Part shown: positions 31,011 through 35,931 of the stretch, piece after piece
Layout of the letters: the number at the start of each line of letters is the position of its first letter
How positions within the stretch are numbered: the stretch's first letter is position 1
Origin: an uncultured Eubacteriales bacterium
Lineage (GTDB): Bacteria > Bacillota_I > Bacilli_A > RFN20 > CAG-288
Assembly (NCBI GenBank): GCA_900316035.1
Contig: ONBI01000007.1
Location: forward strand, 988 to 64,987
Direction of reading: 5' to 3'
DNA: 64,000 nucleotides
The notes under the pieces: generated by a model
Databases searched by the model: none
What the model saw: only the letters and a program-made list of their open reading frames with translations
Told to the model about the DNA's origin: nothing
Translations under genes and position numbers: made by a program

Positions 31011-31857
31011 TCCGAATCAGAATAAGGAAAACGGCTTGATCGGTCTGGTGACGACGCCGATCGGAAACATCGACGACATCACTTTAAGAGCGCTCCGTTT
31101 TCTCAAAGAAGCCGATATCATCGCCTGTGAGGATACCCGTAATACGGGTCTCCTTCTTTCTAGACTCAATATTAAGCCGAAAAAGCTTGTTTCTCTCTAC
31201 GCTCAGACCGAGAAGAAGCAATCGAAAGAACTGGTCGAAGAAGTAAAGAAAGGGAAGCTGACTCTCGCCTATTGTTCCGATGCCGGAATGCCCGGAATCT
31301 CCGATCCCGGAGCTTTACTGGTTCAGCAAGCTTATGAACAGGGAGTCGCCGTTACGATTCTTCCTGGACCCACCGCTTCTTTATCCGCTTTGGTTCTTTC
31401 CGGAATCGATAGCGCGGATTTCTCTTTCTATGGTTTCTTACCTACGAAAGATTCGCAGGAAAAGACTTTCCTCTCCCGTCTTAAGGATAGAGAAGAGACT
31501 CTTATCTTTTATGAATCTCCCAAGAGAATCAAAAAGACGTTATCTCTGATGGAAGGCATCTTCGGAGAGTATAGAGAAGTTTCTTTGATTCGGGAACTCA
31601 CGAAGATCCATGAAGAAGTAATCCATGGAACCTTAAAAGAAATCAACTCCACTTCTATTGAAGAAAAAGGCGAATGCGTCATCGTCGTCAAAGGCGAGAC
31701 CAAGAAAGAGTCTCTCAGCGAAGAAGAAGTAAAGAAGCTTCTCAAGAGCGGATTAAAAGAAGGTAAGACCTTATCTGCCTTAGCCAAAGAGATTGCTTCC
31801 TCCTATCCGATCAGCAAGAACGAAGTCTATCGGATCGGGTTAGAGATGAAGAAATAA
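30997..31857 (+). CDS. rsmI: 16S rRNA (cytidine1402-2'-O)-methyltransferase
   Basis: Tetrapyrrole-methylase-fold N-terminus (LIGLVTTPIGNIDDITLRALRFLKEADIIACEDTR). Confidence 0.85.
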   Translation: MIRNNPNQNKENGLIGLVTTPIGNIDDITLRALRFLKEADIIACEDTRNTGLLLSRLNIKPKKLVSLYAQTEKKQSKELVEEVKKGKLTLAYCSDAGMPGISDPGALLVQQAYEQGVAVTILPGPTASLSALVLSGIDSADFSFYGFLPTKDSQEKTFLSRLKDREETLIFYESPKRIKKTLSLMEGIFGEYREVSLIRELTKIHEEVIHGTLKEINSTSIEEKGECVIVVKGETKKESLSEEEVKKLLKSGLKEGKTLSALAKEIASSYPISKNEVYRIGLEMKK

Positions 31858-31904
31858 AGACATGTAAAAGTCAAAGCCAATAATTCTTTCTTGTGATTGC
31901 TAGA

Positions 31905-33224
31905 TTATTTACTTTGATTTGAGTCTTGGGGAACATTCAAGAGTACCCAAACTCCATTCTTCTTACTACCTTTCCTTTGAAGAATTCCCTGTTCCTTCAA
32001 GGAACGAAGGATACTACTGATATAACTCCTGGAAAAGTCCGTAATATCTTCCAAATCAGAAACCTTCGCGGTTGGATTATCCCGTAGTGCAACGGCCACC
32101 TTCTTTTCCGCCGGTTTTAAAAGGGATTCCTTTGCATCCGCTGTTTCTTGATTATCTTCTTTTGTGAAAGGAATCGTGACGTTTATGTAGTTGTCCATGA
32201 TATCGAAGGCTTGTTTCCCATAGTTGCTAATAATCAAAGGAATACCATGACCTGTCTGTTCCACATAGCCTAACTGAGCAAAGATTTTCTGCAACTTAAA
32301 GTTGATAGGACGACTGATACCTTTATAGAATTCATCCTTGGTTAAATCAGAAGGTAAGCCACCTGTAGAAATAATTTCGATGCGATCTGAGAAAATATAG
32401 ACTGCCGGAGGGTTTCCTTTGTCCCAGCGGGTATGGATGCAGGCATTCTGCCAAGCCTCTTTAAAACTTGCCATATCAAATAGCTTTTCTTCAATCCTTT
32501 GATTGTTGGTCATCGTAACCCGAGTGGTATTAATCGATGCCACATAGTTAGTTACCATTTCCATGGACTGAATCAAGCAGGTTCCACCATATTCGTTGCG
32601 ACTAACAAGAGAGGTCTTATCTTTACCGGCAAACGTGACTACTTTTATCGAGACATCATTGACATCCGCCAAAAGGTAAGCCATCAAGTTGTATTTTCCC
32701 GTCTCGTTTTTCAAACCCATATTCGTCTCAAATGTAAAAGGATTTACCGTCAAACCAGCATTAGTAAAGTACATCTTCAACTTATTGAAAGTGAGCCCCT
32801 GAACTGGGGAATCAAGATGAGTCAGAACATCAGAAGAAACCGATCGACTAAGCAATTCCTTCAAAGCGGATGGCGATAACTCACGATCTTCATCCGCAGA
32901 CCGCATATAGTAACGACCAAATGCAGAATATGGGAAATCATTTCCTCTGACTTCGATTCGAATAACATTTTTATCATCTAATAACTTCAACTCAATGGTA
33001 GGAATGACTTGTGGCTTAATATTATTGGCAATAGCTTGAGAAATTTCTCTTAGCGTCCTATCACCAATCTGTTGACCGATGACATCACCATCATTTTTAA
33101 TGCCAAAATAGAGAACACCATAAGCATTTTTATTCAGCATAGAAGATAAAGAAACCAATCCTTCTTTTAGTTCGCTGGTAGATTTCTTGAATTCAATCTG
33201 TTCTGTCTCTGTTCCTAAGTTCAT
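31905..33224 (-). CDS. Schlafen-like AlbA_2 / HATPase_c_4 / C-terminal wHTH protein (COG2865-type putative regulator or defence protein)
   Basis: The N-terminal divergent AAA/AlbA_2 domain (EQIEFKKSTSELKEGLVSLSSMLNKNAYGVLYFGIKNDGDVIG) is followed by a RecG-C-like ATPase-like domain and a terminal HTH (SYISSILRSLKEQGIL). AT-rich codon usage compared with its neighbours. Confidence 0.65.
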   Translation of the reverse strand: MNLGTETEQIEFKKSTSELKEGLVSLSSMLNKNAYGVLYFGIKNDGDVIGQQIGDRTLREISQAIANNIKPQVIPTIELKLLDDKNVIRIEVRGNDFPYSAFGRYYMRSADEDRELSPSALKELLSRSVSSDVLTHLDSPVQGLTFNKLKMYFTNAGLTVNPFTFETNMGLKNETGKYNLMAYLLADVNDVSIKVVTFAGKDKTSLVSRNEYGGTCLIQSMEMVTNYVASINTTRVTMTNNQRIEEKLFDMASFKEAWQNACIHTRWDKGNPPAVYIFSDRIEIISTGGLPSDLTKDEFYKGISRPINFKLQKIFAQLGYVEQTGHGIPLIISNYGKQAFDIMDNYINVTIPFTKEDNQETADAKESLLKPAEKKVAVALRDNPTAKVSDLEDITDFSRSYISSILRSLKEQGILQRKGSKKNGVWVLLNVPQDSNQSK

Positions 33225-33279
33225 TTTACCGTCTCCTCTCTTCTAAGCCCTATAAAGAGTTTAGCACAAATTCTTTTTA

Positions 33280-33418
33280 AGTCCACTTTATAGTACACTT
33301 TTTAGTACTATTAGTCCACTTTATAGTACACTATAGGCCAAAAATAAAGAAAACGAAAAGCAAAAAATCCCATAATTACGTGGCTTTTTCATTTTTTGCC
33401 GTCTACTTTATAGTACAC
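33280..33418. repeat. three direct copies of 18-bp motif GTCCACTTTATAGTACAC (33280-33297, 33314-33331, 33401-33418; third copy 1 mismatch)
   Basis: Read directly in the sequence. Located in the 297-bp spacer between the ATPase gene stop and the AlbA_2 gene start. The copy nearest the start overlaps a TATAAA -10-like element on the minus strand. Confidence 0.8.
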
Positions 33419-33521
33419 TAGTTCGGATACGAACAGTGGATAATAAAGACTTTAAGAGGATGACGTCAGTGTCATATTTTTAACCCAAATCGTTTTGAGC
33501 CAAACGCTTTTGCGTAACCAA

Positions 33522-34916
33522 TTACTTCCCTTCGCACGCATAAAAATCTTCTAACGAGTAGCCGAGTTTATTTTTCTGTTGAAAGCTCTCCGTAAACCCT
33601 GTCTTAGAAATATACCCAAGCCGATAGAAAGGAAGCAGAGAAGAACCGGTTTGACTCTCTTCTTCTTTGGCTACCTCTTCACCAATAGGTTCTTTTCTAT
33701 ATTTGCATTCGTAAGAAGTAAAACCTGTTTTATCTTTCGTTACAACATCGAATGGAAGGTTTACACGATTCGTTTTGTCATTATAGGAATAGGTTCCGAT
33801 TTGATAAAAAGGAGGTTTGATCTTTCCTTCCCTGTTCTTTCGAATGAGGAATTCTTTGGAGACCTCTTCAAAAAGTAGAGGAAGATATTGCGTCTCTAAA
33901 TCCTCTTTAATCACTTCCCTGAAATAGTTTTCCGGTCCCATCAGATCTCGCGAAGCAAAAGAAGAAAGAATATAGCGGTAATAGAAATGCAGCAGATTAT
34001 CTTGGAACGAATAGAAAGTCAGCTTTCGATTATCCGGTTCATTGATTGGGGTAACTTTCGTTAAGATACCAAGCCCAACCCCTTTCTCTAACGCATACTC
34101 GGGTCGAGCATCTTTTCCTAAGACAGAAAGAATGTCGCTGAACTTTCTTTTGCCTCTGCCGATTAAAGCAAGTACCGAGTTAAGTCCCTCGACTTTGCTG
34201 ACTTCCGCATTTACGGTCTCTTTGACAAAAAGATCAAGAATGCTGTCCGGTCTGCAATACAAGCGGATAATATTCTCTTCGACACTCTTCTTCGGATCAC
34301 AAAGAGAAAGAGCATAGGGTAGACCAGAGAAGCAAGCATAGGCTTTGAATTTCTCTTCCGCGGAATAATCTGGGAAGAACAAGGAAGCATCGTAATAATC
34401 AAATTCTTTTATCTTCAGCGCCTGATCGAATCTTCCGTGTAAGGGACGATTTTTCTCAATCATCTTCTCTAACATATCGACATAACTGCCGGAGACAATC
34501 AGTTTCAGATGGCATTGGGTATTTCGATATTTATCGATGACTTTCGCTAGGCTTGCATCCGCTCCGTCTTCTCCTCCTAAAGGAAGATAAGAGAACTCAT
34601 CTAAGACCAAGACGATCTTCTGTTTCATCGCCTGGGAAAAGACCGCTTCAAAAGCTTCCTCTAAGTTTGAGAAATGAACATAGCTCGGAAGAGAAAGCTT
34701 CTCCTTGATAAGGTTTTCTAGCGCTCTTATATTCAAAGGCAAAACAACTTCCTTTGCTTCAAAAGGAAGAAGAAGCCCATCAATTTTCTTAGTTGCTTCC
34801 TTGATCAACTCACTTTTTCCGACTCGTCTTCTTCCATAGATGAGACAGGCTTTGAAGTCATCTCCTTCCAATAGTTCCGAAAGGATTCCCAGTTCTTCTT
34901 TTCTTCCGACAAACAT
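33522..34916 (-). CDS. AAA+ ATPase of the Arch_ATPase/DUF234 family (COG1672-type)
   Basis: Walker A YGRRRVGKSEL, Walker B LVLDEF, with a DUF234-like C-terminal half. AT-rich. Confidence 0.65.
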   Translation of the reverse strand: MFVGRKEELGILSELLEGDDFKACLIYGRRRVGKSELIKEATKKIDGLLLPFEAKEVVLPLNIRALENLIKEKLSLPSYVHFSNLEEAFEAVFSQAMKQKIVLVLDEFSYLPLGGEDGADASLAKVIDKYRNTQCHLKLIVSGSYVDMLEKMIEKNRPLHGRFDQALKIKEFDYYDASLFFPDYSAEEKFKAYACFSGLPYALSLCDPKKSVEENIIRLYCRPDSILDLFVKETVNAEVSKVEGLNSVLALIGRGKRKFSDILSVLGKDARPEYALEKGVGLGILTKVTPINEPDNRKLTFYSFQDNLLHFYYRYILSSFASRDLMGPENYFREVIKEDLETQYLPLLFEEVSKEFLIRKNREGKIKPPFYQIGTYSYNDKTNRVNLPFDVVTKDKTGFTSYECKYRKEPIGEEVAKEEESQTGSSLLPFYRLGYISKTGFTESFQQKNKLGYSLEDFYACEGK

Positions 34917-35085
34917 AGATACGTCTCCTTGTATCTACTATACACAAATATTTTTGGGTCAAATACTTTTGTGTAAAAATATTGCCTGATTTATCGCCAT
35001 TCTGAAGGGTCAGAGAACATTCTTTCCACCGAAAAAGCCTTGCTCTCTGGCTGATTAAAGCCAAAGAAACAAGGCTATCTTTTTA

Positions 35086-35931
35086 TTACTTATCCTTATC
35101 CACCTGTGCGTAATGAAGCTTATAGAGTTTATCTAACGGAGCAATCTTATCGATCAGAAGCTTTGCGATTCTATCGATCTCAGAGTTCTCACTATAATCC
35201 GCTTCACAATAGAAATCGACACGATGATCGTCGAAGAGTTTCTTTGCCGAAGTCGTCTTATGCGGAGCATAGACCGCAATGGAAGTTCCACCATTGCCAC
35301 GGACCAGTTTCATACAAGGGACATCGGTAAGACCATCGGCGATATAAATCATATTCGTCCACGGAATCGGTTTATCTTCATCCGGCATCGAAGCATTCAC
35401 CTTATCGTTCTCAGCAGGATCCAATACGCCTTTGTTGATACGATAGAGGAACTGGGTTTTCGTCGTATAGTTGATAACGGATTTCGGCCAGACCGCTGAA
35501 CCGTTCTCATCGTAGAGATATTCGCAGGCATAGACCTTCTTGAAGAAAGGATAGATATCACTGCCTTCGATGATCTCTTCGTTTCCGGAAGAGATGACGT
35601 AGTGCTGTACTTCTACGCCTTTCGTCTTTCCGTATTCATCCAATCTTCTGAACCAGTCTTTGACGCCAGGAAAGAACTGGATATCTTTTCCTAGCTGAAC
35701 AAAGGCTTCTCTATTGATAGGAAGATTTCTCTTTTTGGACTCCTGAATCATCAGGTACATATAGGCAAGAAGTGGATCCATATGTTTTTTCTTCGAGAGC
35801 TCGTTAGCACTCTTCCAGAACTCACTGGGATTCAGATGCAAAGAAGGAATAAAAGAATAGTTCTGCATATCGGTTGTGCAGAGCGTGTGATCGAAATCGT
35901 AGATAAAGGCAACGATTGTTTTCTTCGTCAT
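35086..35931 (-). CDS. HAD-superfamily hydrolase (nucleotidase-like)
   Basis: HAD motif I DFDHTL near the N-terminus. The likely start is ATG 35929-35931 after AAGAGGA. The track's longer N-terminus (MRRFLFLFF…) is probably spurious. Confidence 0.6.
   Translation of the reverse strand: MTKKTIVAFIYDFDHTLCTTDMQNYSFIPSLHLNPSEFWKSANELSKKKHMDPLLAYMYLMIQESKKRNLPINREAFVQLGKDIQFFPGVKDWFRRLDEYGKTKGVEVQHYVISSGNEEIIEGSDIYPFFKKVYACEYLYDENGSAVWPKSVINYTTKTQFLYRINKGVLDPAENDKVNASMPDEDKPIPWTNMIYIADGLTDVPCMKLVRGNGGTSIAVYAPHKTTSAKKLFDDHRVDFYCEADYSENSEIDRIAKLLIDKIAPLDKLYKLHYAQVDKDK

What the first reader, a model, noticed from the sequence alone, without database searches (positions are those of the whole stretch)
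31880..34950. AT-rich two-gene insertion: Schlafen-like AlbA_2/HATPase_c_4/wHTH protein + Arch_ATPase/DUF234 AAA+ ATPase, candidate uncharacterised defence/regulatory module
The conserved Bacilli-type housekeeping block ends at rsmI. Two co-oriented minus-strand genes with much lower GC than their neighbours are inserted before the next core gene, a HAD hydrolase. One encodes a COG2865-type protein (AlbA_2 + RecG-C-like ATPase-like + HTH), an architecture shared with eukaryotic Schlafen antiviral proteins. The other encodes a COG1672-type AAA+ ATPase. Neither family has an established function, and as far as I know the tandem pairing with an intervening repeat array is not a named defence system. 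Compositional atypicality plus an ATPase and a nucleic-acid-binding partner is the usual signature of a phage-defence or abortive-infection cassette.
Basis: partly seen in the sequence, partly recalled or inferred. Interest (0 to 1): 0.72.

Follow-up and report, generated by a model that had tools for sequence, protein, structure and literature searches.

The report
Two separate single-gene defence candidates
What looked like a new two-gene anti-phage module is two unrelated, horizontally spread single-gene immune candidates (a bacterial Schlafen-type nuclease and a PDC-S27 ATPase-nuclease) lying side by side in a variable spot of a gut bacterium's genome. The repeat array between them is a conserved promoter element of the Schlafen gene alone.

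Summary
Both genes and their domain architectures are real: AlbA_2/Schlafen + GHKL-like + wHTH at 31905-33224, and ATPase_2 + DUF234 at 33522-34916, both on the minus strand.

They are not a module. None of 80 loci encoding relatives of the first gene has a relative of the second within 10 kb, and none of 80 the other way round. Neither family has any conserved neighbour.

Each gene is already catalogued on its own. The first has the commonest prokaryotic Schlafen architecture ("HisKinase-HTH" pSlfn, or "Schlatpase"-HTH) and an intact Ex4ExK nuclease motif. The second matches PADLOC's unvalidated single-gene candidate PDC-S27, an AAA+ ATPase fused to a PD-(D/E)xK nuclease.

GC is only mildly low (z about -1.0 to -1.4). 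Transfer is better shown by 50-69% identical homologues in unrelated phyla, and by different cargo downstream of rsmI in sister species.

The intergenic repeats belong to the Schlafen gene. 50 of 76 homologues carry 12-bp-period direct repeats upstream, against 7 of 295 control spacers. The last unit sits at the -35 position, and the unit sequence tracks the fast-evolving wHTH. This suggests iteron-type autoregulation, which I did not find described.

Verdict: new members of known kinds, plus a modestly novel cis-element.

The parts
31905..33224 (-). Gene 1: prokaryotic Schlafen of the 'HisKinase-HTH' / 'Schlatpase-HTH' class, 439 aa
   Evidence: ORF. Pfam SLFN_AlbA_2, HATPase_c_4 and MarR_2. 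1325 homologues. The best structural match is the uncharacterised full-length homologue 3LMM.
32877..33209 (-). Schlafen/AlbA_2 nuclease domain (aa 6-116), with the Ex4ExK motif E6-x4-E11-x-K13
   Evidence: Pfam 61.7 bits against a cut-off of 25.3. E6, E11 and K13 are invariant in 79 of 79 homologues. The motif is defined in PMC13056530.
32211..32417 (-). GHKL-type (PF13749 HATPase_c_4) ATP-binding domain core (aa 270-338)
   Evidence: Pfam 50.1 bits against a cut-off of 26. The blocks E256/N260, S286-G288-G289 and T324-G325-H326-G327 are invariant. GHKL kinases appear among the fold hits.
31935..32123 (-). C-terminal winged helix-turn-helix (aa ~368-430), the fastest-evolving part of the protein
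   Evidence: MarR_2, HTH_5 and TrmB hits. MarR, ArsR and AspA wHTH fold hits. It is 52% identical to P0002, against 82-86% for the rest of the protein.
33276..33332 (-). Promoter-proximal array of about 5 direct repeats with a 12-bp period (GTGTACTATAAA / GTGGACTAATA / GTACTAAAAA / GTGTACTATAAA / GTGGACTTAAAA). Proposed iteron-type operator of gene 1.
   Evidence: TRF gives period 12 and 5.1 copies; sequence. The homologous arrays occur in 50 of 76 other loci, against 7 of 295 control spacers. One strain (L016) lacks 33 bp of the array.
33401..33420 (-). Distal copy of the repeat (TAGTGTACTATAAAGTAGAC), about 70 bp upstream of the main array
   Evidence: It is the third exact 14-mer.
33258..33286 (-). 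Predicted sigma-A promoter of gene 1: -35-position hexamer GTGGAC (33286-33281, the start of the last repeat unit), a 17-nt spacer, then an extended -10, TGC TAAACT (33266-33258)
   Evidence: Read. The simple consensus scan did not list it. The same layout holds in homologues: 27 of 37 strictly detected arrays are followed by a -10 hexamer at a spacer of 17-19 nt, and 20 of those at 18. Inference only; there are no transcript data.
33522..34916 (-). Gene 2: PADLOC PDC-S27-type AAA+ ATPase fused to a DUF234 PD-(D/E)xK nuclease domain, 464 aa
   Evidence: ORF. Pfam ATPase_2 and DUF234. PADLOC PDLC04984 at E 6.4e-29, covering model positions 4-416 of 474. The AF2 model has pLDDT 91, with best folds 2QEN, 2FNA, ORC/Cdc6 and NLR NB-ARC.
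33702..33749 (-). PD-(D/E)xK motif of the DUF234 domain (D390 ... E403-C-K405)
   Evidence: FDVVT...SYECK is conserved across 26 family members. DUF234 is classed as PD-(D/E)XK in PMC3424549.
34944..34983 (-). Repeats with a 15-bp period, which also form an inverted repeat (TACACAAA...TTTGTGTA), directly upstream of gene 2. Candidate operator overlapping a promoter-like site.
   Evidence: TRF gives period 15 and 2.6 copies. Inverted repeat I18. Promoter-like site TTTACA-16-AAAAAT at 34977-34950. 17 of 78 family loci have an 8-mer repeated at offset 15, against 5 of 295 controls.

Best explanation
The region holds two autonomous single-gene units. They are neighbours only because the site downstream of rsmI is a variable spot where such genes accumulate.

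UNIT 1 (31905-33332) is a prokaryotic Schlafen of the Schlafen-GHKL-HTH class.
- Shown: it has an intact Ex4ExK Schlafen nuclease motif, conserved GHKL ATP-binding motifs and a C-terminal wHTH.
- Shown: upstream lies an array of 12-bp direct repeats whose last unit occupies the -35 position of a promoter. This layout is conserved in homologues across phyla.
- Inferred: the protein's own wHTH binds these iterons cooperatively and represses its own promoter. That would hold a potentially toxic RNase at a low level.
- Inferred by analogy with characterised Schlafens: on an infection cue, ATP binding to the GHKL domain drives oligomerisation. That assembles the active nuclease, which cuts tRNA and arrests translation.

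UNIT 2 (33522-34983) is a PDC-S27-type protein.
- Shown: it is an ORC/Cdc6- or STAND-like AAA+ ATPase with intact Walker A and B motifs, fused to a PD-(D/E)xK nuclease domain. It has its own upstream repeats of 15-bp period.
- Inferred: it senses nucleic acid in an ATP-dependent way and cleaves DNA, acting alone.
For: INDEPENDENCE OF THE TWO GENES
- 0 of 80 genome loci with 50-69% identical gene-1 homologues encode an ATPase_2/DUF234 relative within 10 kb, by tblastn (E<=1e-5) and by profile HMM (E<=1e-3).
- 0 of 80 metagenome loci with gene-2 homologues (29-57% identical) encode a gene-1 relative.
- No Pfam family occurs in more than 5 of 142 immediate neighbours of gene 1, or 5 of 130 of gene 2.
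- The closest relative of gene 1 (P0002, 78%) lies between two AAA_14/DUF4143 genes. A close relative of gene 2 (P0123, 63%) lies among sugar and glycosyltransferase genes.

VARIABLE SITE
- In a sister species the genes after rsmI are a DUF4143 fragment and a Schlafen-GHKL-HTH paralogue only 30% identical to gene 1. In another they are unrelated genes plus a DUF4143 fragment.

IDENTITY
- Pfam and PADLOC PDC-S27 at E 6.4e-29.
- Ex4ExK in 79 of 79 homologues; Walker A, Walker B and D...ExK conserved.
- Folds.
- Literature classes: PMC13056530; bioRxiv 10.64898/2026.05.29.728809; PMC12988326; PMC3424549.

ITERON AND PROMOTER ARCHITECTURE
- An 8-mer is repeated at offset 12 in 50 of 76 upstream regions (37 at offset 24, 19 at 36), against 7 of 295 control spacers from the same loci.
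- Units are listed.
- 27 of 37 strictly detected arrays are followed by a -10 hexamer at a spacer of 17-19 nt.
- The 30%-identical paralogue also carries 3 x 12-bp repeats.
- Among 2.9 million viral contigs, the tandem dominant unit occurs once. It lies directly upstream of one of the only two gene-1 homologues found there.

wHTH-REPEAT CO-VARIATION
- Window protein against P0002: 82-86% identity in the core and 52% in the wHTH, with different units (GTGTACTATAAA against GTAGCCTTAAGA).
- At matched core identity, pairs sharing a unit class have higher wHTH identity: 0.42 against 0.28, 0.58 against 0.43, and 0.78 against 0.70.

DEFENCE LINK FOR THE WIDER FAMILY
- Distant plasmid homologues sit inside type I R-M and BREX operons.
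Against: - No function was tested here.
- In PMC13056530 seven pSlfn systems were tested in E. coli. Only a DUF262 fusion and an Ig-like fusion protected, so no HisKinase fusion has yet been shown to defend.
- PDC-S27 is an unvalidated candidate.
- This locus is flanked by housekeeping genes, not defence genes. The ATPase family's neighbours are also mostly housekeeping.
- The AF2 model of the Schlafen domain was poor (pLDDT 35-60), so structural similarity to SLFN nucleases could not be checked.
- The wHTH-repeat co-variation is confounded by shared ancestry, and my assignment of repeat classes was crude.
- The window's own array is more degenerate than most, and its promoter is predicted by eye; the consensus scan did not pick it up.
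- The co-occurrence samples are the 80 best hits per family, and many loci are truncated on one side.
Confidence: 0.65

Rival explanations
1. One reading: the two genes form one lineage-specific two-gene defence or abortive-infection system. The ATPase-nuclease and the Schlafen-HTH protein would work together, with the repeat array as a shared regulatory element.
For: - The genes are adjacent and co-oriented, and both are present in every conspecific contig.
- Schlafen-GHKL-HTH genes are sometimes next to other AAA+/PD-(D/E)xK singletons of the PDC-S01 (AAA_14/DUF4143) type. Examples are the P0002 locus, sister species L195 and 4 of 142 neighbours.
Against: - Co-occurrence is 0 of 80 and 0 of 80.
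- A 297-bp spacer holds a separate promoter and operator belonging to gene 1 alone.
- Gene 2 has its own family-specific upstream repeats.
- PDC-S01 neighbours are equally frequent next to gene-2 homologues. PDC-S01 is the most abundant single defence-candidate locus in rumen genomes (PMC13356809). Shared hot spots therefore explain the adjacency.
Confidence: 0.08
2. Neither gene is an immune gene in this organism. Gene 1 would be an ordinary autoregulated DNA-binding regulator or nucleoid-associated factor. Gene 2 would be a selfish or housekeeping ATPase-nuclease, for example for repair or for maintenance of a mobile element.
For: - The locus lies among housekeeping genes.
- Neighbours of gene-2 homologues are mostly metabolic genes.
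- PMC13056530 reports that 30% of pSlfn genes have no defence neighbour, and the tested HisKinase fusions gave no protection.
- PDC-S27 is unvalidated (PMC12988326).
- Sources annotate gene-1 homologues as 'predicted HTH transcriptional regulator'.
Against: - The nuclease motifs are invariant, which a pure regulator would not need.
- The same protein occurs at 50-69% identity in Bacillota, Pseudomonadota, Spirochaetota, Bacteroidota and an archaeon.
- Part of gene 1's neighbours are defence genes: TOTE primase, PbeA, type IV restriction, ThsB, a reverse transcriptase.
- Distant homologues are embedded in R-M and BREX operons.
Confidence: 0.2
3. The 12-bp arrays are not operators for the protein's wHTH. 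They could be promoter UP-like or -35-like elements multiplied by replication slippage. They could also be sites used for the mobility or recombination of the gene cassette.
For: - The units are AT-rich and contain -35-like hexamers such as TTGAAT and GTGACA.
- Copy number varies between loci (2-6) and within the species (a 33-bp deletion in L016), as slippage would produce.
- The array always travels with the gene.
Against: - The 4-5 variable bases of the unit differ between lineages while the period and position stay fixed.
- Those bases track the wHTH sequence.
- One clade uses the same motif as an inverted repeat (CACTTTATTCAACA / TGTTGAATAAAGTG), which is typical of a protein-binding site.
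- No integrase, transposase or target duplication flanks the genes.
Confidence: 0.07

Closest known systems
Prokaryotic Schlafen proteins: the 'HisKinase-HTH' pSlfn class (Perez Taboada et al. 2026, PMC13056530), also called the 'Schlatpase' supra-domain with a C-terminal HTH (Kuzmenko et al. 2026, bioRxiv 10.64898/2026.05.29.728809)
   Same: - The same three-part architecture: PF04326 + PF13749 + HTH.
- The same Ex4(E/D)xK catalytic motif.
- A single-gene unit with horizontal spread.
- This is the commonest architecture: 19.2% of 5,930 pSlfns. 58.6% of SLFN-containing prokaryotic proteins carry the GHKL domain, and more than 90% of those have an HTH.
   Different: - No member of this particular class has a demonstrated phenotype.
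- Neither paper mentions the promoter-proximal 12-bp repeat arrays or proposes a DNA target for the HTH. The word 'repeats' does not occur in the main text of PMC13056530.
- This copy is not in a defence island.
RorSlfn5 and EcoSlfn7 (validated bacterial Schlafens), and SLFN-pAgo RzAgo
   Same: - The Schlafen nuclease effector.
- In RzAgo the same GHKL domain binds ATP and drives the tetramerisation that forms the active nuclease.
   Different: - The sensors differ: an Ig-like domain, DUF262 or an Argonaute core, against a wHTH here.
- tRNA cleavage and any trigger are untested for this protein.
PADLOC PDC-S27 (phage defence candidate, single gene), and its sibling PDC-S01 (AAA_14 + DUF4143)
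   Same: - Gene 2 matches the PDC-S27 model nearly end to end (E 6.4e-29).
- It is an ATPase fused to a PD-(D/E)xK domain and a solitary gene.
- The family is abundant in rumen and gut genomes and in archaea (PMC12988326, PMC13356809).
   Different: - PDC-S27 is a prediction by genomic embedding; no activity, trigger or structure has been published.
- The period-15 upstream repeats seen in 17 of 78 loci are not part of its description.
DIP2311 of Corynebacterium diphtheriae (PDB 3LMM)
   Same: It is the best structural match over the full length of gene 1's model (Foldseek E 1.4e-15), and a weak sequence match in the GHKL region.
   Different: It is a structural-genomics entry with no function assigned, only 13-16% identical, and longer (583 aa).
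Iteron-type autoregulation, e.g. ParR binding the 11-bp direct repeats of parC at the parMR promoter of plasmid R1, or plasmid Rep proteins binding iterons (from my own knowledge, not tested here)
   Same: Several short, phased direct repeats overlap a promoter, next to the gene for a DNA-binding protein. Repeat sequence and protein diverge together between lineages.
   Different: Here the repeats have a 12-bp period, the binder would be a wHTH fused to a nuclease and a GHKL domain, and no partition or replication function is involved. This is a resemblance in layout only.
PABY2304 (2QEN) and SSO1545 (2FNA) archaeal Walker-type ATPases; ORC/Cdc6 and NLR NB-ARC modules
   Same: The AAA+ and winged-helix part of gene 2 superposes on them (Foldseek E 1e-12 to 1e-8).
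   Different: They lack the C-terminal PD-(D/E)xK domain, and the two archaeal proteins have no assigned function.

Membership tests
Prokaryotic Schlafen, HisKinase-HTH / Schlatpase-HTH class | Schlafen (PF04326 SLFN_AlbA_2) domain | tested here: met
   61.7 bits against a gathering cut-off of 25.3, covering model positions 1-117 of 118.
Prokaryotic Schlafen, HisKinase-HTH / Schlatpase-HTH class | Catalytic Ex4(E/D)xK motif | tested here: met
   E6-TEQI-E11-F-K13 in the window protein. E6, E11 and K13 are present in 79 of 79 aligned homologues. The motif is as defined in PMC13056530.
Prokaryotic Schlafen, HisKinase-HTH / Schlatpase-HTH class | GHKL-type ATPase domain PF13749 following the Schlafen domain | tested here: met
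   50.1 bits against a cut-off of 26. The ATP-lid-like blocks are invariant.
Prokaryotic Schlafen, HisKinase-HTH / Schlatpase-HTH class | C-terminal helix-turn-helix | tested here: met
   MarR_2 scores 26.4 bits, just under its cut-off of 27. HTH_5 and TrmB also hit. The profile matches Lrs14 and MarR chains, and the modelled wHTH matches MarR, ArsR and AspA folds.
Prokaryotic Schlafen, HisKinase-HTH / Schlatpase-HTH class | Trigger-dependent tRNA cleavage and phage protection | not testable with these tools
   This needs biochemistry and plaque assays. No HisKinase-type pSlfn has yet been shown to protect (PMC13056530).
Prokaryotic Schlafen, HisKinase-HTH / Schlatpase-HTH class | Association with defence genes (69.6% of pSlfn lie within 10 kb of one, PMC13056530) | tested here: inconclusive
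   This locus is flanked by housekeeping genes. The only catalogued defence-type gene nearby is the adjacent PDC-S27 candidate. A minority of homologues' immediate neighbours are defence genes.
PADLOC PDC-S27 | Match to the PDC-S27 profile over most of its length | tested here: met
   PDLC04984 at E 6.4e-29 and 99.1 bits, with protein residues 2-410 on model positions 4-416 of 474. The tool gives no curated cut-off.
PADLOC PDC-S27 | AAA+ ATPase (ATPase_2) fused to a PD-(D/E)xK domain (DUF234), with catalytic motifs intact | tested here: met
   Pfam. Walker A GRRRVGKS, Walker B VLDEF and D390...E403-C-K405 are conserved. DUF234 is classed as PD-(D/E)XK in PMC3424549.
PADLOC PDC-S27 | Single-gene system with no obligatory partner | tested here: met
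   No family occurs in more than 5 of 130 immediate neighbours across 80 loci.
PADLOC PDC-S27 | Anti-phage activity | not testable with these tools
   Reported as still unvalidated in PMC12988326.
   0 of 80 and 0 of 80 loci within 10 kb, by tblastn and profile HMM.
   A 297-bp spacer holds a gene-1-specific promoter and repeat array that is conserved where gene 2 is absent. Gene 2 has separate upstream repeats. Read-through transcription was not excluded, and no terminator was predicted in the spacer.
Horizontally acquired island | Atypical base composition | tested here: not met
   GC z-scores are -1.4 and -1.0, ranks 4 and 9 of 57 genes.
Horizontally acquired island | Patchy distribution across distant taxa, and variable content at the same site in relatives | tested here: met
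   Homologues at 50-69% identity occur in Lachnospiraceae, Succinivibrio, Ruminobacter, Sphaerochaeta, Treponemataceae, Bacteroidaceae and Methanobacteriaceae. Sister species carry different genes after rsmI.
Horizontally acquired island | Mobility genes, a tRNA target or flanking repeats | tested here: not met
   The window has no tRNA, no convincing flanking repeats and no integrase or transposase next to the genes.

The most novel reading that the evidence does not exclude
The 12-bp iteron array may be more than an autorepression site. It could be a DNA scaffold on which the Schlafen-GHKL-HTH protein polymerises head to tail into an inactive filament, as guide RNA locks SLFN-pAgo into inactive filaments. 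Loss of that DNA-bound state during infection would release and activate the tRNase. Causes could include chromosome degradation, changes in supercoiling, or displacement by a phage protein. The cell's own DNA would then act as the 'guard' for the most abundant and still uncharacterised class of prokaryotic Schlafens.
Probability: 0.1. Interest if true: 0.7.

Novelty: new member of a known kind. Interest (0 to 1): 0.33.

Why it matters
The headline claim, a new two-gene defence system, does not hold, so the locus adds no new system.

Two things remain useful. First, it is a clear example of how two abundant single-gene immune candidates end up adjacent by landing in the same variable site. Neighbourhood-based discovery pipelines can mistake such pairs for modules.

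Second, Schlafen-GHKL-HTH is the commonest prokaryotic Schlafen architecture, and neither its function nor the role of its HTH is known. A conserved, lineage-specific iteron array exactly at the promoter gives a concrete and cheaply testable hypothesis for what the HTH binds and how expression is held down. It may also bear on the design of expression tests, because constructs must carry the whole array. The published tests cloned only 100-150 bp of upstream DNA. In this window the array with its distal copy reaches about 200 bp upstream, and in some homologues arrays reach about 200 bp.

Tried and rejected
- **Sequence search of PDB.** Gene 1 gave no hit as a single sequence. As a profile it gave only wHTH hits and a weak 3LMM hit. 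This did not help with the Schlafen link.
- **AF2 model of gene 1.** The Schlafen domain came out at pLDDT 35-60 from a shallow 25-sequence alignment. Structural comparison with SLFN nucleases was therefore not possible, and the fold search returned only 3LMM, GHKL kinases and wHTH proteins.
- **Rfam on 31700-35300.** Nothing below E 0.8. The spacer is not a known RNA.
- **tRNA scan of the window.** None found.
- **Flanking direct or inverted repeats as insertion scars.** Only chance-level matches.
- **GC as evidence of transfer.** Rejected as weak.
- **Presence/absence polymorphism within the species.** Not found; all contigs carry both genes. The apparent split of gene 1 in L013/L190 is a scaffold gap (a run of N) joined to a divergent paralogue, which is an assembly artefact.
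- **Phage carriage.** Only 2 viral contigs encode gene-1 relatives, and gene 2 has only distant viral relatives (31% identity or less). The window's iteron is absent from viral contigs, so there is no sign that phages carry the site as a target or decoy.
- **Specific association of gene 1 with AAA+/PD-(D/E)xK singletons.** PDC-S01 neighbours are about as frequent beside gene-2 homologues. I treat this as shared hot spots rather than partnership.
- **Background rate of PADLOC hits.** Not measured, so enrichment of defence genes near homologues is described only qualitatively.

Full report
**What is in the sequence.**

The region holds two co-oriented minus-strand ORFs, 31905-33224 (439 aa) and 33522-34916 (464 aa).

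- It also confirms the second: ATPase_2 (E 1.6e-14) and DUF234 (E 5.9e-9).
- Upstream lies dnaX-ybaB-recR-tmk-holB-PSP1-rsmI. Downstream lie a HAD hydrolase, a zinc-ribbon gene, DUF389, YjbR and the Rnf genes.
- The 297-bp spacer contains 5.1 copies of a 12-bp unit at 33276-33332, plus a distal copy at 33401-33420.
- The 14-mer GTGTACTATAAAGT occurs three times in the window, all in the spacer, against 0.19 expected.

The compositional claim is overstated.

- The genes are 39.5% and 40.8% GC, against 44.5 +/- 3.6% for 57 window genes (z -1.4 and -1.0; ranks 4 and 9).
- The organism is an uncultured rumen/gut bacterium that NCBI labels 'Eubacteriales bacterium' (MAGs GCA_002481535.1 and GCA_029007535.1).

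**Are the two genes a module? No.**

- I fetched the 80 best genome loci encoding relatives of gene 1 (50-69% identity, up to 10 kb of flank).
- I also fetched the 80 best metagenome loci encoding relatives of gene 2 (29-57% identity).
- No gene-1 locus contains an ATPase_2/DUF234 relative, by tblastn at E<=1e-5 or by profile HMM at E<=1e-3.
- No gene-2 locus contains a gene-1 relative.
- I scanned 142 immediate neighbours of gene-1 homologues and 130 of gene-2 homologues against Pfam and PADLOC. No family occurs in more than 5 of them.
- Gene-2 neighbours are mostly metabolic: oligopeptidase F, prephenate dehydratase, phosphofructokinase.
- Gene-1 neighbours include a minority of defence genes: TOTE primase, PbeA, type IV restriction, methyltransferases, ThsB, a reverse transcriptase and PDC-S01.
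- The closest relative of gene 1 (P0002, 78%) lies between two AAA_14/DUF4143 genes. A close relative of gene 2 (P0123, 63%) lies among sugar and glycosyltransferase genes.

**Why are they adjacent?**

- Every contig carrying the identical RsmI, gene 1 or gene 2 shows the same arrangement, so the pair is fixed in this species.
- In a sister species (RsmI 74% identical), the genes after rsmI are a DUF4143 fragment and a Schlafen-GHKL-HTH paralogue only 30% identical to gene 1, followed by an acid phosphatase.
- In another sister species (RsmI 70%), they are unrelated genes and a DUF4143 fragment.
- The site downstream of rsmI is therefore a variable spot that repeatedly collects singletons of these kinds.
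- Gene-1 homologues at 50-69% identity occur in Lachnospiraceae, Succinivibrio, Ruminobacter, Sphaerochaeta, Treponemataceae, Bacteroidaceae and a Methanobacteriaceae MAG. This is much stronger evidence of horizontal spread than the GC values.
- No tRNA, integrase or flanking repeat marks the insertion.

**What gene 1 is.**

The literature now covers this architecture.

- Perez Taboada et al. (PMC13056530) catalogued 5,930 prokaryotic Schlafens. 'HisKinase-HTH' fusions make up 19.2% and 'HisKinase' fusions 34.0%. The catalytic motif is Ex4(E/D)xK.
- In the same study, two of seven tested systems protected E. coli: a DUF262 fusion and an Ig-like fusion that acts as a tRNase. No HisKinase fusion protected.
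- Kuzmenko et al. (bioRxiv 10.64898/2026.05.29.728809) name the PF04326+PF13749 pair 'Schlatpase' and report that more than 90% of such proteins end in an HTH. [quoted passage not shown]

The window protein fits this class.

- It has E6-x4-E11-x-K13, invariant in 79 of 79 homologues.
- Its GHKL blocks are conserved.
- Its model matches the uncharacterised full-length homologue 3LMM best. The Schlafen domain itself modelled poorly.
- Distant plasmid-borne homologues (25-32% identity) lie inside type I R-M operons and a BREX operon. This supports a defence link for the wider family.

**What the repeat array is.**

It belongs to gene 1, not to the pair.

- In 50 of 76 upstream regions of gene-1 homologues, an 8-mer recurs at an offset of exactly 12 bp. 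It recurs at 24 bp in 37 and at 36 bp in 19.
- The same is true of only 7 of 295 other intergenic regions of the same loci.
- The dominant unit is GTAGCAAATAAA, in 2-6 copies. Other lineages use GTGTTGAATAAA, GTGTATAATAAA, GTAGCGGATAAA or GTAGCGCAAACA. P0002 uses GTAGCCTTAAGA and the window uses GTGTACTATAAA.
- One clade arranges the same motif as an inverted repeat.
- The 30%-identical paralogue in the sister species also has three 12-bp repeats.

The array is phased with a promoter.

- In 27 of 37 strictly detected arrays, a -10 hexamer, usually a perfect TATAAT, follows the first hexamer of the last unit at a spacer of 17-19 nt (18 nt in 20 of them).
- The window fits this layout: GTGGAC, 17 nt, then TGC-TAAACT. 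The simple consensus scan did not list this site.

The wHTH is the fastest-evolving part of the protein and tracks the unit.

- Window protein against P0002: 82-86% identity in the core and 52% in the wHTH, with different units.
- At matched core identity, pairs sharing a unit class have higher wHTH identity.
- Among 2.9 million viral contigs, the tandem dominant unit occurs once. It lies directly upstream of one of the only two gene-1 homologues found there.
- One strain lacks 33 bp of the window's array, so copy number is polymorphic.

I infer an iteron-type operator through which the protein represses its own promoter. I found no description of this in the papers read or in a literature search.

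**What gene 2 is.**

- It matches PADLOC's PDC-S27 model nearly end to end (E 6.4e-29).
- PDC-S27 and PDC-S01 are described as unvalidated single-gene candidates that fuse an ATPase to a PD-(D/E)xK domain. Both are abundant in archaea and rumen genomes (PMC12988326, PMC13356809).
- DUF234 is classed as PD-(D/E)XK (PMC3424549).
- Walker A (GRRRVGKS), Walker B (VLDEF) and D390...E403-C-K405 are conserved.
- The high-confidence model (pLDDT 91) resembles the archaeal ATPases 2QEN and 2FNA, ORC/Cdc6 and NLR NB-ARC modules.
- Directly upstream is a repeat of 15-bp period, which is also an inverted repeat, overlapping a promoter-like site.
- 17 of 78 family loci show an 8-mer at offset 15, against 5 of 295 controls. 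The units are often palindromic. This suggests a separate operator.

**Mechanism, and what is shown versus inferred.**

- Shown: the architectures, the intact catalytic motifs, the lack of co-occurrence, the conserved repeat and promoter layout, the divergence of the wHTH, and the variable site.
- Inferred: wHTH-iteron binding and autorepression; ATP-driven oligomerisation and tRNA cleavage by gene 1; ATP-dependent DNA cleavage by gene 2; and a defence role for either gene in this organism.
- Main caveats: no HisKinase-type Schlafen and no PDC-S27 has a demonstrated phenotype. This locus lies among housekeeping genes. The co-variation analysis is confounded by phylogeny.

**Verdict.**

The genes, domains and repeats are real, the GC argument is weak, and the two-gene-module interpretation is refuted. 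Both genes are new members of known, already catalogued kinds. The one element that appears undescribed is the conserved 12-bp iteron array at the promoters of stand-alone Schlafen-GHKL-HTH genes. It gives a testable handle on the commonest and still uncharacterised class of prokaryotic Schlafens. Interest is modest.

Noticed in passing
window 16394-17859 (- strand): A complete AbiE system. AbiEii toxin at 16394-17323 (Pfam E 2e-40, PADLOC E 3e-88) and AbiEi at 17278-17859 (PADLOC E 4e-80). At 36% GC, AbiEii is among the most AT-rich genes in the window, so this is the real compositional outlier with a defence function.
   Followed up: partly
L185:9306-9892 (same species; corresponds to about window 34296-34302 inside gene 2): In one long-read metagenome contig, the ATPase gene is interrupted by a 587-nt ORF-less group II intron in the sense orientation (Rfam group-II-D1D4-3 at 91 bits, D1D4-1 at 46 bits). 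Seven bases are shared at the junctions. The gene callers split it into two ORFs, but it may still be expressed after splicing.
   Followed up: partly
L016:2247-2266 versus window 33299-33331: One strain lacks exactly 33 bp of the 12-bp repeat array, equal to the distance between the two exact GTGTACTATAAAGTGGAC copies. Iteron copy number is therefore polymorphic within the species.
   Followed up: yes
window 34944-34983; L128, L153, L154, L159, L167 and others: The ATPase_2/DUF234 (PDC-S27) family has its own upstream repeats of 15-bp period, often two tandem palindromic units such as TCGGTTGCAACCGAG x2. 17 of 78 loci show them, against 5 of 295 controls. This may be a second autoregulatory operator.
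   Followed up: partly
window 33474-33504 versus 34933-34978: An AT-rich 31-nt stretch just downstream of the ATPase stop codon resembles the period-15 units upstream of the gene at 68-71% identity (family D2). It could be a second binding site, a remnant of the cassette's ends, or chance.
   Followed up: no
L195:8067-10281; L197:11729-12526; L179:484-4615: AAA_14/DUF4143 (PDC-S01-type) genes or fragments recur next to Schlafen-GHKL-HTH genes and in the site downstream of rsmI in sister species. This looks like shared insertion hot spots for ATPase-nuclease singletons.
   Followed up: partly
L257, L258, L259, L262 (plasmids of Francisella, Pseudanabaena, Mycoplasmopsis, Azotobacter): Distant homologues of gene 1 (25-32% identity) are embedded between hsdM and hsdS, or upstream of hsdR, in type I R-M operons. 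One lies between brxC and pglX of a BREX system. They have no separate spacer, and are a different, operon-embedded mode of the same architecture.
   Followed up: partly
L082, L084, L085 (Lachnospiraceae / Dorea), gene at 11323-14268: In one clade, the gene immediately downstream of the gene-1 homologue is a roughly 980-aa TOTE-conflict-system archaeo-eukaryotic primase (Pfam AEP-TOTE, E 2.7e-76; 4 of 142 neighbours). This may be a lineage-specific partnership.
   Followed up: no
L013 / L190, gene 1 region: The apparent frameshifted copy of gene 1 in one rumen assembly is a scaffold gap (NNNNNNNNNN) joined to sequence from a divergent paralogue. It is an assembly artefact, not a pseudogene.
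   Followed up: yes
window 33350-33395 (- strand): Between the distal and proximal repeat copies lies an AT-rich inverted repeat, GCAAAAAAT...ATTTTTTGC, with a loop of about 22 nt. Several homologues (L077, L096, L098) also have two arrays about 100 bp apart, which could suggest DNA looping.
   Followed up: no
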